Shown here: positions 14,001 to 20,000 of the stretch, piece by piece | How the letters are laid out: the number at the start of each line of letters is the position of its first letter | Numbering within the stretch: the first letter of the stretch is position 1 | From: Haliotis cracherodii | Taxonomy: Eukaryota | Direction: 5' to 3' | DNA: 64,000 nt | Assembly: GCF_022045235.1 (NCBI RefSeq) | Contig: NW_027266275.1 | Span: forward strand, 79,608,001 to 79,672,000 | The notes under the pieces: generated by a model | Seen by the model: the letters and a program-made list of their open reading frames with translations, nothing else | Database searches by the model: none | What the model was told of the DNA's origin: nothing | Position numbers and translations under genes: made by a program

Positions 14001-17000
14001 TCTATACTGATTTGGAATCACAAAGGGCCAATTCCACATGTAACAAAATACAAACTTTTGTTGCATTGTTACTATTTGACATTCACAACCAATTGTTTCA
14101 TAACTTACCATAGTTGCCACACTGCCGATACATTCAAACGTATAATCAAGACCTCCGTCAGTCATTTCCACCAGAACCTGCTGGACGGGGCGCTCATGAT
14201 CTTTGGGATTCACAAATTCTGTAGCTCCAAACTGTTTGGCTGCAACACAATGGGAATGCTTCAGTCATTTCAAACTGTGTACAATCAGAGAGATGAACAC
14301 ATTCCTCTATGCTTATAGCAGGGCAACAGTACTTCCCAAGAACTACAAAACTATCCTGACAACATTAGCACTGAGAGAGGGTGCTTACATCAGGGACCAA
14401 TGACACGTAATCATCCACTTAAAACATCTCTTGCAACAAGAAAGCGGAAATATTCCAAACGGGGTATCTAGTCTTCCCCAGGGCTTCCAAGGGATACAGC
14501 TTCTGTTCATATTATGCAGCCACCATGCAAACTCAACCATCACCAAGGGAACTGGGAACCATCCTCCTCCATCATCTCACAGGAGTAAGATAAACTATGT
14601 TTACCAGTCTCGAACTTGTCTGGGTTGATGTCAATGCCAATGATACGACTGGCTCCTGCTTTCTTGCATCCCATGATGACAGCGAGACCCACAGCACCAA
14701 GACCCCATACAGCACAAGTCGATCCAGCCTCAACCTGAAATGCGGAGTACAAATTTGACAGCCAGGTAAATCAAACAGTATTTATATTTAGTCTGACTTA
14801 TATAGAAAGACTTATCTGCTGCCTCTTTGGGGTCAGCAGAAATGTAAAGAGTCTGCTAATACACAGGGAAATGAGACCTGTTAGACCCGTAGAATAGGTC
14901 TTCAGCAACCCATGCTTGCCAGAAAAGACGACTATGCTTGGCGTAAGAGGCAACTAACAGGATCGGGTGGTCAGGTTCGCTGACATGGTTGATGCACGTC
15001 ATTGTATCCCAATTGCGTGGATTGGTGATCATGATGTCAACCACTAGATTGTCTGGGCCAGACTCAATTATTTACAGACTGTCGTGATATTGCTGGAATA
15101 TTGCTCAAAGCGGTGGAACAACATACTCAATCAATCACAAAGAAATGCATGGAACTGTAATTACAACTTTTGGTATTTCTGTTTCTTGAAAATTGGAATT
15201 ATCAGATGTCACAGTTTTGAATTGATTCATCTAAAAGCTCTGATATATTATCGTATTTATGTTATAACTATTCTCCGGTACAACCATTGTCATCTTCCAC
15301 GTCCAAACCTACTTTAGCAGAGTTGAGGGCAGCACCATATCCGGTAGATATCCCACACCCTAGAAGGCACACTTTGTCCAGAGGCGCCTGCTCATCCACC
15401 TGCACACAGAATAAGGGGCATTATACATGGGGCACACAGGACACGGGACATTATATAAGGGGCACACAGGACACGGGACATTATGCAAGGGGCACACAGG
15501 AAACAGGGCATCATACAAGGGGCACACAGGACACGGGACATCATACAAGGGGCACACAGGACACGGGGCATCATACAAGGGGCACACAGGACACGGGGCA
15601 TCATACAAGGGGCACACAGGACACGGGGCATCATACAAGGGGCACACAGGACACGGGGCATTATACAAGGGGCACACAGGACACGGGACATCATACAAGG
15701 GGCACACAGGACACGGGGCATCATACAAGGGGCACACAGGACACGGGGCATCATACAAGGGGCACACAGGACAAGGGGCATCATACAAGGGGCACACAGG
15801 ACACGGGGCATCATACAAGGGGCACACAGGACACGGGGCATCATACAAGGGGCACACAGGACACGGGGCATCATACAAGGGGCACACAGGACACGGGACA
15901 TCATACAAGGGGCACACAGGACACGGGGCATCATACAAGGGGCACACAGGACACGGGGCATCATACAAGGGGCACACAGGAAACAGGGCGTCATACAAGG
16001 GGCACACAGGAAACAGGGCGTCATACAAGGGGCACACAGGAAACAGGGCATCATACAAGGGGCACACAGGACACGGGACATTATACAAGGGGCACACAGG
16101 AAACAGGGCATTATACAAGGGGCAAACAGGACACGGGGCATTACACAAGGGGCACACAGGACACGGGACATTATACAAGGGGCACACAGGACACGGGGCA
16201 TTATACAAGGGGCACACAGGACACGGGGCATTATACAAGGGGCACACAGGACACGGGGCATCATACGAGGGGCACACAGGAAACAGGGCATCATACAAGG
16301 GGCACACAGGACACGGGGCATCATACAAGGGGCACACAGGACAAGGGGCATCATACAAGGGGCACACAGGACACGGGGCATCATACAAGGGGCACACAGG
16401 ACACGGGGCATCATACAAGGGGCACACAGGACACGGGACATTATACAAGGGGCACACAGGAAACAGGGCATCATACAAGGGGCACACAGGACACGGGGCA
16501 TCATACAAGGGGCACACAGGACACGGGGCATCATACAAGGGGCACACAGGACACGGGACATTATACAAGGGGCACACAGGAAACAGGGCATCATACAAGG
16601 GGCACACAGGAAACAGGGCGTCATACAAGGGGCACACAGGACACAGGGCATCATACAAGGGGCACACAGGAAACAGGGCGTCATACAAGGGGCACACAGG
16701 ACACGGGACATTATACAAGGGGCACACAGGAAACAGGGCATCATACAAGGGGCACACAGGAAACAGGGCGTCATACAAGGGGCACACAGGACACGGGACA
16801 TTATACAAGGGGCACACAGGAAACAGGGCATCATACAAGGGGCACACAGGAAACAGGGCGTCATACAAGGGGCACACAGGACACGGGACATTATACAAGG
16901 GGCACACAGGAAACAGGGCATCATACAAGGGGCACACAGGAAACAGGGCGTCATACAAGGGGCACACAGGAAACAGGGCATCATACAAGGGGCACACAGG

Positions 17001-20000
17001 AAACAGGGCATCATACAAGGGGCACACAGGACACGGGGCATCATACAAGGGGCACACAGGGCATCATACGAGGGGCACACAGGACACGGGGCATCATACA
17101 AGGGGCACACAGGACATGGGGCATCATACAAGGGGCACACAGGAAACAGGGCATCATACAAGGGGCACACAGGAAACAGGGCATTATACAAGGGGCAAAC
17201 AGGACACGGGACATCATACAAGGGGCACACAGGAAACAGGGCGTCATACAAGGGGCACACAGGAAACAGGGCATCATACAAGGGGCACACAGGAAACAGG
17301 GCATCATACAAGGGGCACACAGGACACGGGGCATCATACAAGGGGCACACAGGGCATCATACGAGGGGCACACAGGACACGGGGCATCATACAAGGGGCA
17401 CACAGGACACGGGGCATTTTACAAGGGGCACACAGGAAACAGGGCATCATACAAGGGGCACACAGGACACAGGGCATCATACAAGGGGCACGCAGGACAC
17501 AGGGTAGGATACAAGGGCACACAGAACACGGTAGATACAAGGGGTACGCAGAACAGGGTAGATACAAGGGGCACGCAGAACACGGTAGATACAAGGGGCA
17601 CGCAGGACACGGTAGGTACAAGGGGCACGCAGGATACGATAGATACAAGGGGCACGCAGGACACGGTAGGTACAAGAGGCACGCAGAACACGGTAGATAC
17701 AAGGGGCACGCAGAACACGGTAGATACAAGGGGCACGCAGGACACGGTAGGTACAAGGGGCACGCAGGACACGATAGATACAAGGGGCACGCAGGACACG
17801 GTAGGTACAAGAGGCACGCAGAACACGGTAGATACAAGGGGCACGCAGAACACGGTAGGTACAAGAGGCACGCAGGACACGGTAGGTACAAGGGGCACGC
17901 AGAACACGGTAGGTACAAGAAGCACGCAGAACACGGTAGATACAAGGGGCACGCAGAACACGGTAGGTACAAGGGGCACGCAGAACACACGGTAGATACA
18001 AGGGGCACGCAGGACACGGTAGGTACAAGGGGCACGCAGAACACAGGGTAGATACAAGGTGCACGCAGAACACGGTAGATACAAGGGGCACGCAGGACAC
18101 GGTAGGTACAAGGGGCACGCAGAACACAGGGTAGATACAAGGGGCACGCAGAACACGGTAGATACAAGGGGCACGCAGAACACGGTAGATACAAGGGGCA
18201 CGCAGAACACGGTAGATACAAGGGGCACGCAGAACACGGTAGATACAAGGGGCACGCAGGACACAGGGTAGATACAAGGAACAACCTGCTGAAAACTGAT
18301 GGATCGGGTTATGCCAATGAGGCATCTGACAAAATGGCTATCAAACTGAAATCCCAGCACCCGACATGAACCAGGGAGCATGCGTCTCATCAACATTCAG
18401 TTGTGATGGCAAACACACCCAGGTCAGAACAGTCAGTGATTCTGCCTCCCCTCGGAAGTATGAGTCTAATAAAACTGATTTTAGCCAGTATGCTGGGTTC
18501 ATAAAAGTCCATATCTTAACAAGTTAACTTGCAAGTGATGCCAAGAGACAATTTTGTGTGAGTTGATTCCAAAACTGTTTGGCTCAGGCTGCAAAATAAA
18601 TGACATATAGCTTCTTACTGCTGTTCTAAACAATTACCTTGGCAACTGATATTTCAGCAACTACAGTGTATTCACTAAACGTGCTGGTGCCCATGAAGTG
18701 GTAGAGTTGCTTCCCCTTACAAGTGAACCGGGACGTACCATCGGGCATTACACCAGCACCTTGAGTAGATCTGAAACATATTCCAAATATTGAATGTTAG
18801 ATCAAACTTCTCTACAGGACTAGACATAGACACTTGTCTGTTACTCCGACACTCGTGAAAATCTGTAAGGATGGCTTGTTTTCTAGACTTCTTCCAAAAT
18901 ATTGTTACATTGAACTATGTCTATAGTGAACAGGCTTATAACAAACTGACTTTTTAGGCCCCGGCCATTTGCTGTATATTTTCTCATATTAAATTGATGG
19001 ATATAACAAACACATACAGCATACTCACTTAGTGGTCCTGTGTGCTCTCTGTCAATGACGTTTTTGTTTATAACGAATTGTTATTGTCTGAACTGCTGAG
19101 CTGCTCATGTGTCACCAATCAGCTTTAGACATCGACGTTAAGTTTCAAATCAAAGATTAATTGCAGATGAACACGGCATCCCCAAATGTAATACATATAG
19201 AATACTAAACGAGCTCCCGTGTAATACCAATTTTATGAAACGAGTGAATAGTTCTGGTATCTGACGAGCGAAAGCGAGTCAGATACCACAACTATTCACG
19301 AGTTTCATAAAATTGGTTTTACACGGGAGCGAGTTTAGTATTTTATTTATTACTTGCCATTTACAACGTTTTTAGAATTATACTGTTGAGTATGAATAGG
19401 CTAGCTGACACCTACACGATCCACGGCAAAGTCCAATTGAGTTTAACAGAATAATACTTCAAACACGTCAAAAGTTGAAAGGTATGAATTTAATACCATA
19501 CAACGGTCCATCTTTAGAATTCACAAAATTATCGTAGGGCTAAGACATTCGCAACTCACATACTTTAACTTAGACTAACGACTGTCGTTGCGCTACAATA
19601 CGATCGCCTTGTGGAACGGGCCTTGTACCTCAAACCTTACAATAACGTCACAATACCCGATGACGTAATTTGTGGAATTTTGTTGCAAGACCCATCGGCG
19701 AAACAATGCCTAGTGACGTCACCCTAGCAACAAGGTTGCTGGGGTCATCGAGTGTGCTTAAGCTCCTCTCAGTGATCTATCAACTCCACACGCAATGTCT
19801 TTGAATAAGCCAAGAGATGTCGAGAGCTTACAATATTTGTTCGTGAAACGTGTTCCGAGAGTACACAAGCACGCGTTTTGGTATTACACAATGTGTAATA
19901 CAGCTGTATGTTTATTAAACGGGTGATCTCTTCACGGGCAAGTAATAAATAAACAATGCACACTTGTGTTACTTATCAAATGACATTATGCAACCATGTG

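What the first reader, a model, noticed from the sequence alone, without database searches (positions are those of the whole stretch)
15400..18287. A ~2.9-kb AG-free zone: minisatellite fused to an ADH5 3' splice site
Seen: the 30-bp/27-bp array starts 1 nt from the exon 6 acceptor. By eye, no CT occurs on the plus strand from 15402 to 18285, so the pyrimidine-rich sense strand has no AG across ~100 variant units. The array fills ~90% of the 3.2-kb intron. Known: AG-exclusion zones are usually tens of nt, and long ones mark distant branch points. Inference: the acceptor's own pyrimidine tract was amplified, and AG-creating variants (cryptic acceptors) are purged. Array length could be a VNTR that tunes GSNOR splicing. 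Caveat: the plus strand is T-poor, so part of the absence is compositional.
Basis: partly seen in the sequence, partly recalled or inferred. Interest (0 to 1): 0.7.

Follow-up and report, generated by a model that had tools for sequence, protein, structure and literature searches.

The report
AG-less splice-acceptor minisatellite in ADH5
In the formaldehyde-detoxifying gene ADH5 of a likely abalone, the 30 bases just before a splice signal are repeated about 99 times, giving 2.9 kb without the AG that ends introns, likely because the copied piece never had one rather than because selection removed it; repeats beside exons are common in this genome, so this is probably ordinary.

Summary
A locus-specific 99-unit minisatellite (15402-18279) fills 89% of ADH5 intron 5, stops at the acceptor AG and leaves 2,886 nt without a sense-strand AG (median 31, maximum 412 at 402 other acceptors). 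Its unit is the intron's last ~30 nt (branch-point-like TAAT/TGAT plus pyrimidine tract), ending two bases short of the AG.

Purging is not shown. GG is absent over the same span. The units hold only 25 distinct substitutions, so no new AG is expected by chance with P 0.06-0.38. All 14 other acceptor-side arrays sampled carry AG in their unit, one as ~50 intact acceptor copies. AG-free arrays are as common antisense as sense. A branch-like A lies at -22, so no distant branch point is needed. RNA contigs from four runs carry exon 6 in one mRNA.

Verdict: an AG-less cousin of the known 'mirage' junction repeats, likely neutral. The scan noted AG-bearing mirages before, in this and other genomes. 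One lead remains: donor-spanning repeats outnumber acceptor-spanning ones 15 to 2 in 398 exons, which may reflect a filter at birth. Other alleles were not examined.

The parts
15402..18279 (-). Minisatellite array, 99 units, 89% of intron 5
   Evidence: TRF; unit decomposition
15404..17489 (-). Type A block: 70 units of ~30 bp, each with a TGAT/TAAT/TGAC branch-point-like motif (one TAAAAT variant lacks it) followed by a pyrimidine/UG tract; the three units nearest the acceptor are the most diverged and carry TAAT
17490..18279 (-). Type B block: 29 units of ~27 bp, related to type A by a 3-bp gap plus substitutions
15402..18285 (-). Zone free of AG, and of GG, on the sense strand (2,886-nt gap)
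15400..15401 (-). 3' splice site AG of intron 5 (…TGTGTGCAG|GTG)
   Evidence: sequence; RNA contigs cover exon 6 at depth 163-790 and the adjoining intron bin at 0-12
15420..15424 (-). Predicted branch point ATAAT, A at -22 (15421)
   Evidence: ATAAT is among the common pentamers at -40..-15 of sampled acceptors, 18 occurrences; not mapped experimentally
15313..15399 (-). ADH5 exon 6 (87 nt, 29 codons)
   Evidence: TIGR02818 positions 155-182, E 1.7e-8; joined to exon 7 in RNA contigs of 4 of 4 runs
18638..18770 (-). ADH5 exon 5 with donor GTAATT
   Evidence: TIGR02818 positions 111-153, E 8e-19; human class III ADH, E 2e-19
18284..18296 (-). Acceptor-like TTTTCAGCAG|GT at the upstream edge of the array; ends the AG-free zone
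   Evidence: sequence; use not tested

Best explanation
This is a locus-specific intronic minisatellite whose unit matches the last ~30 bases of ADH5 intron 5 up to two bases before the AG; it likely arose by tandem duplication of that stretch and likely lacks AG simply because the founder unit lacked it. Inferred steps: (1) a 30-nt duplication of about positions -34 to -5, bounded by a GC microhomology, copied the branch-point-like motif and pyrimidine tract but not the AG; (2) ordinary repeat turnover amplified it upstream into two blocks (30 and 27 bp), keeping the number of independent mutations near 25-35, most of them transitions that cannot make AG; (3) the spliceosome would use the branch point at -22 and the one real AG, so the array would be removed with the intron and be near neutral. 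Selection may act only at birth, by favouring units that omit the acceptor AG.
For: The unit matches the intron end at 25 of 30 positions and occurs nowhere else as an exact 18-nt core (80 of 80 matches here). The only other DNA hit is a different 21-bp array at 73% identity. GG is absent over the same span. There are 25 distinct substitutions, 19 of them transitions; P(no new AG) is 0.06, 0.12, 0.25 and 0.38 for increasing transition bias, and 0.12 under the spectrum from 1,686 events in 107 other arrays. In those arrays AG-creating events are 177 observed against 191 expected on the sense strand and 184 against 198 on the antisense strand, so there is no strand-specific loss. AG-poor arrays number 5 sense and 6 antisense of 170; among 55 arrays of 1 kb or more, 1 and 4. 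Arrays end within 60 nt of 14 of 402 acceptors (null 3.6, p 0.001) and all 14 have AG in the unit, so AG is tolerated there. In 464 kb of sequence including the window, AG-free runs of 500 nt or more number 7, and GG-free runs reach 4,427. One unbranched mRNA contig per run holds exon 6.
Against: At 2,886 nt this is the longest AG-free run in the 464-kb background set (next 1,340) and the 1.2-Mb gene-centred set (longest 1,703 on either strand), and it ends at a real acceptor. If the true number of independent mutations is 35-50, P(no new AG) falls to 0.05-0.015. One variant (T11A) would create AG on the consensus unit but occurs on a TAAT unit where it does not; the conditional P is 0.09. Acceptor-spanning repeats are rarer than donor-spanning ones, 2 against 15 of 398 exons, p 0.002, which hints that copied acceptor AGs are disfavoured. 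Other alleles and the ancestral intron were not examined.
Confidence: 0.68

Rival explanations
1. Ongoing purifying selection. Each type A unit is a branch point plus pyrimidine tract lacking only AG, so any AG-creating mutation would make a cryptic acceptor and be removed.
For: Three of the ten AG-creating changes would put AG 13-17 nt after a unit's branch-like A. None is seen in 99 units. The T11A variant is a near miss, conditional P 0.09. Acceptor-spanning arrays are rarer than donor-spanning ones, 2 against 15.
Against: Not significant for 25 events (P 0.06-0.38; 0.12). GG and GA, which have no such role, were not newly created either. L206 keeps about 50 intact copies of its acceptor upstream of a kinesin exon, and L210 keeps 125 AGs in an array ending 10 nt before the acceptor AG; neither was checked against RNA. 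Mirages in amphioxus keep AG/GT without aberrant mRNA (PMC3087553, PMC3902484; passages).
Confidence: 0.17
2. A functional length polymorphism. The 2.9 kb of UG/pyrimidine-rich RNA binds splicing factors (PTB-, CELF- or TDP-43-type; names recalled, not tested) or offers decoy branch points, so array length tunes exon 6 inclusion or intron retention and hence GSNOR level.
For: Human precedents exist: CFTR (TG)n near a 3' splice site, the ABCA7 25-bp repeat, and 9,537 splicing-associated repeats (PMC10078293; abstract and opening paragraphs). Exon 6 is 87 nt, so skipping would keep the frame.
Against: Four RNA-type runs under three species labels each give one unbranched contig through exon 6 at depth 188-934. 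Contigs on the array edge have depth 10-14 in three runs and are absent in the fourth. Contigs drop rare isoforms, so this is weak evidence. Length polymorphism itself is not shown here.
Confidence: 0.08
3. A distant branch point. Branching occurs upstream of or deep within the array, and the spliceosome scans about 2.9 kb to the first AG, as in the exons of Gooding et al. 2006.
For: The zone is formally an AG exclusion zone far longer than any of 402 others sampled. Verified distant branch points have AG-free zones (PMC1431707; passages).
Against: A branch-like ATAAT lies at -22, with more every 30 nt upstream. That paper itself notes that pyrimidine tracts inflate GA-, GG- and AA-free zones too. 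The verified cases it describes are hundreds of nt, not kilobases.
Confidence: 0.05

Closest known systems
Amphioxus 'mirage' minisatellites (Adh3, globins BflGb6 and BflGb9, troponin C, PGBD5); PMC3087553 and PMC3902484, passages read; the original Canestro et al. 2002 paper is not held and is known here only through those citing passages
   Same: A tandem array built from sequence at an exon edge, extending into the intron, with the authentic site next to the exon and apparently normal splicing. Amphioxus Adh3 is the same enzyme class.
   Different: Mirage units span the boundary and usually copy AG/GT. This unit stops two bases before the AG and has no exon sequence (0 copies of the -10..+10 junction word; unit against exon start p 0.245).
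Human F7 intron 7 37-bp VNTR (PMC1557585; abstract read)
   Same: A minisatellite seeded at a splice junction whose extra copies stay silent.
   Different: It is on the donor side and spans the boundary, and it was tested with minigenes. The ADH5 array is on the acceptor side and copies no splice dinucleotide.
Exons with distant branch points and long AG exclusion zones (PMC1431707; passages read)
   Same: A long AG-free pyrimidine-rich stretch directly before a 3' splice site.
   Different: Here the zone is a tandem array with a branch-like motif at the normal distance, GG is excluded equally, and the length is kilobases.
Intronic minisatellites of abalone, e.g. the 27-bp repeat in TSSK1-like intron 3 (PMC6905558; passages read)
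   Same: A kilobase-scale intronic array of a ~27-30-bp unit in a gastropod gene.
   Different: That one is shown to vary in length between individuals; no link to the acceptor was described in the passages read.
Splicing-associated tandem repeats in humans (CFTR TG tract, ABCA7 VNTR; PMC10078293, abstract and opening paragraphs read)
   Same: A UG/pyrimidine-rich repeat near a 3' splice site.
   Different: Those have measured effects on splicing; none is shown here.

Membership tests
Mirage minisatellite | Head-to-tail minisatellite touching an exon edge | tested here: met
   99 units ending at the acceptor AG
Mirage minisatellite | Unit spans the exon-intron boundary and duplicates the splice signal | tested here: not met
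   0 near-copies of the -10..+10 junction 20-mer in the 1.5 kb upstream; unit against AG plus exon start no better than shuffles, p 0.245
Mirage minisatellite | Normal mRNA despite the array | tested here: inconclusive
Mirage minisatellite / VNTR | Length differs between alleles | not tested
   No allele data were obtained
Distant-branch-point exon | Long AG exclusion zone | tested here: met
   2,886 nt against median 31 and maximum 412
Distant-branch-point exon | Branch point and tract at the 5' end of the zone, with no usable proximal branch point | tested here: not met
   ATAAT with A at -22, repeated at 30-nt steps; prediction only
Distant-branch-point exon | Branch point mapped by lariat | not testable with these tools
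   Needs lariat sequencing
Distant-branch-point exon | Exclusion specific to AG | tested here: not met
   GG is absent over the same span
Class III ADH (ADH5/GSNOR) host gene | Best match to class III over other zinc ADHs | tested here: met
   TIGR02818 is the top hit for 4 of 5 exon queries, the fifth had no hit; human class III E 2e-19 against 2e-15 for horse ADH E
Splicing-regulatory tandem repeat | Repeat length associated with splicing | not testable with these tools
   Needs matched genotypes and RNA

The most novel reading that the evidence does not exclude
In this genome minisatellites are born preferentially at splice junctions (an array lies within 60 nt of, or across, 40 of the 804 edges of 402 sampled exons) and pass an asymmetric filter: donor copies are kept, while acceptor copies survive mostly when the unit drops the AG. 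The ADH5 array would then be the extreme 'AG-less mirage': 70 complete branch-point and pyrimidine-tract cassettes, each one transversion from a cryptic acceptor and held AG-free by selection. That would make it a natural mutation-accumulation test of 3' splice-site choice over kilobases.
Probability: 0.2. Interest if true: 0.55.

Novelty: new variant of a known kind. Interest (0 to 1): 0.24.

Why it matters
As a single locus it matters little: it looks like a tolerated repeat. It is a useful warning that a kilobase AG-free zone can come from repeat amplification and need not mark a distant branch point. The side result is more useful. Arrays are several-fold enriched at exon edges in this genome, and donor-spanning ones outnumber acceptor-spanning ones 15 to 2. 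If that holds genome-wide, it gives thousands of natural tests of how 5' and 3' splice sites are chosen among tandem copies, and of why repeats arise at junctions. Seven literature searches listed no paper whose title or opening abstract covers this array or such a survey in abalone. The library lacks most subscription journals, and no supplements were read.

Tried and rejected
Dispersed repeat family: rejected; the core word occurs only here, and the C7 hit is a different, AG-containing 21-bp array.

Decayed exon-spanning mirage: rejected, p 0.245.

Coding role of the 924-codon stop-free frame on the + strand (15221-17992): set aside as a by-product of a T-poor repeat strand; not searched.

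G-quadruplex on the template strand as the driver of expansion: weak. There are 26 matches with loops up to 12 nt and none with loops up to 7; G4Hunter mean 0.77, 5% of windows at or above 1.2.

Recursive splice site at the upstream edge (CAG|GTTGTT): a poor donor by consensus; not tested.

Assembly artefact: the variant structure (two blocks, 33 unit types) and array-type contigs in three independent runs argue that the array is real; its exact length is unverified.

No holder was on record as RNA; the four runs laid are guessed RNA, though their contigs join exons across introns with CT..AC ends (GT..AG on the gene strand). The lack of array contigs in X14 is not evidence of absence. DNA alleles of other individuals and species were not obtained, which leaves polymorphism, AG-bearing alleles and the ancestral intron open. 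Canestro et al. 2002 is not held. The eight other AG-free zones of 300 nt or more in the background were judged not to precede exons by eye on three-frame translations only.
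Full report
OBSERVATION. The + strand has CT at 15400 and next at 18286, a gap of 2,886; the next-longest CT gap in the window is 130. TRF finds one array at 15402-18279, period 30, 99 copies. It decomposes into 70 type A units (~30 bp) next to the acceptor and 29 type B units (~27 bp) upstream, 33 distinct sequences in all. The host gene lies on the minus strand. Exons 3, 5, 6 and 7 hit TIGR02818 best and the exon 9 query hit nothing; exon 5 hits human class III ADH best. 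Intron 5 is 15400-18637, 3,238 nt, so the array fills 89% of it. One thing was missed: CC (sense GG) is absent over the same span. The genome is 1.18 Gb in 80 contigs. 'Abalone' is recalled from a flanking SINE and matches other scan notes; I did not test it.

WHAT THE UNIT IS. The 30 nt before the final GCAG match the consensus unit at 25 of 30 positions. Type A units carry a branch-point-like TGAT, TAAT or TGAC followed by a pyrimidine/UG tract. The last ATAAT has its A at -22, and the motif recurs every 30 nt upstream. T[AG]A[CT] lies at -48..-15 of 236 of 402 sampled acceptors, with ATAAT and ATGAT among the common forms. The unit holds no exon sequence: there are 0 near-copies of the junction 20-mer, and the alignment to the exon start is at chance level (p 0.245). 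An 18-nt core has 80 exact matches in the genome, all in this array. A 120-base query found one other place, a different 21-bp array that contains AG. So the array is local, and its unit is the intron's 3' end minus the AG. That it arose by duplication of this stretch is inference; the ancestral intron was not seen.

IS AG PURGED? The 92 modal-length units hold 25 distinct substitutions, 19 of them transitions; seven odd-length or partial units were left out of this count. All ten AG-creating changes of type A are transversions. P(no new AG) is 0.06 without transition bias and 0.38 with the array's own bias. With the spectrum from 1,686 events in 107 other arrays it is 0.12 for 25 events, 0.05 for 35 and 0.015 for 50. 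New GG and new GA are also absent. One result points the other way: T11A would make AG on the consensus unit but sits on a TAAT unit, with conditional P 0.09. In the 107 arrays, AG-creating events are 0.92 of expectation on the sense strand and 0.93 on the antisense strand. The data do not require purging and cannot exclude it.

GENOMIC BACKGROUND. I examined 464 kb: the window, its flanks, the C7 hit region and five arbitrary 50-kb blocks. AG-free runs of 500 nt or more number 7 including this one, 3 reach 1 kb, and GG-free runs reach 4,427 and 3,412. I then fetched 120 stretches of 10 kb around kinase, kinesin and myosin-head exons found by family search, located exons by tblastn and called splice sites by a simple score. 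These sites are not RNA-verified, ten stretches come from one paralog cluster, and the repeated hits in L195 were dropped from the exon list as array copies. Among 402 exons the AG exclusion zone has median 31 and maximum 412, so the ADH5 zone is a true outlier. But of 170 arrays, 14 end within 60 nt of an acceptor (null 3.6, p 0.001) and 26 start within 60 nt of, or across, a donor (null 3.4, 0 of 1,000 permutations; the null forbids exon overlap, and the donor window reached further into the exon). All 14 acceptor-side units contain AG; with 26 of 170 units AG-less overall, 0 of 14 has P 0.10. L206 repeats its acceptor about 50 times intact, and L210 has 125 AGs in an array ending 10 nt before the acceptor AG. 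AG-poor arrays number 5 sense and 6 antisense. A symmetric test without TRF gave 15 donor-spanning and 2 acceptor-spanning repeats in 398 exons, Fisher p 0.002, and no other acceptor-side intron-only array at that stringency. Sitting next to an acceptor is therefore common and does not demand AG-freedom, although copying the acceptor AG itself seems rarer than copying a donor.

SPLICING. Contigs of four guessed-RNA runs (three species labels, three studies; 4 of 18 runs listed) were laid on 12400-15500. Each has one contig, at depth 188-934, that joins exon 6 to exon 7 and on downstream. In X12 and X13 about 500 further bases lie beyond exon 6 and off the intron, close to the 486 coding bases of exons 1-5; the exon 5-6 joint is thus inferred, not seen. 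Array-type contigs have depth 10-14 in three runs, one of them under a second species label, a weak hint that the array is shared. Contigs drop rare isoforms, so low-level skipping or retention is not excluded.

MECHANISM. Shown: location, unit structure, locus specificity, joint absence of AG and GG, few independent mutations, and exon 6 in the main mRNA. Inferred: birth by duplication of the last ~30 intron bases, growth by ordinary repeat turnover, branching at -22, and near neutrality (confidence 0.68). Rivals: ongoing purging 0.17, tuning VNTR 0.08, distant branch point 0.05.

COMPARISON. It works like the 'mirage' repeats of amphioxus Adh3, globins, troponin C and PGBD5, which span exon edges and leave mRNA normal (PMC3087553, passages; PMC3902484, passages; the 2002 original is not held), and like the human F7 intron 7 VNTR (PMC1557585, abstract). 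It is not a member, because its unit does not span the boundary. It has the long AG-free zone of distant-branch-point exons but not their other marks; that paper notes that pyrimidine tracts also lengthen GA-, GG- and AA-free zones (PMC1431707, passages). Length-variable intronic minisatellites are known in abalone (PMC6905558, passages), and repeats that alter splicing are known in humans (PMC10078293, abstract and opening paragraphs). Other papers were seen as search listings only. No supplements were read. Earlier scan notes report AG-bearing mirages in this and other genomes and a few long AG-free zones elsewhere; none matched this DNA. They are unchecked and are not used as evidence.

VERDICT. 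Real and extreme as a number, and most simply explained as amplification of an AG-less unit. A new variant of a known kind; interest 0.24. The donor/acceptor asymmetry is the part worth a genome-wide look.

Noticed in passing
window 18284-18296 (minus strand): The upstream edge of the array reads TTTTCAGCAG|GT, so GCAGGT flanks both ends of the array. It could be a silent cryptic acceptor, a relic of the founding duplication, or chance (about 1 in 256 given the AG, at even base composition).
   Followed up: no
L206 (G000:C78:60630501-60640500), kinesin gene, minus strand: A 29-bp unit spanning a splice acceptor, about 54 copies over 1.7 kb with AG intact: a true acceptor mirage.
   Followed up: partly
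L104, L195, L200, L211, L213, L224, L228, L229, L240, L247, L252, L253, L256: 15 donor-spanning tandem arrays in 398 kinase, kinesin and myosin exons, for example 83 bp x 28 in L195 and 34 bp x 85 in L229.
   Followed up: partly
L253 (G000:C6:30485001-30495000), myosin-head gene: A 32-bp array ending 2 nt before an acceptor AG; its copies read CAT where the real site reads CAG. It may be a mirage whose copied AG was lost.
   Followed up: partly
window 15221-17992, + strand: A 924-codon stop-free frame across the array, likely a by-product of the T-poor repeat strand.
   Followed up: no
window 5945-8380 and 55703-57213: Two more kilobase minisatellites (75 bp x 32.5; a 27/49/76-bp compound) with long GG-free runs of up to 1,296 nt.
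   Followed up: no
G000:C5:20030218-20050000 (L029-L030): An array of 333-bp period, at least 19.8 kb long, built of 12-bp sub-units; it may encode a repetitive protein.
   Followed up: no
G000:C12:28406365-28415066 and C12:64.59-64.96 Mb: Six near-identical intronless kinase domains in tandem, and a cluster of more than a dozen myosin-head genes.
   Followed up: no
L245 (G000:C12:65948001-65958000): A 412-nt AG-free, C/A-rich low-complexity stretch before a called myosin-exon acceptor: the longest other exclusion zone sampled, and not an array.
   Followed up: no
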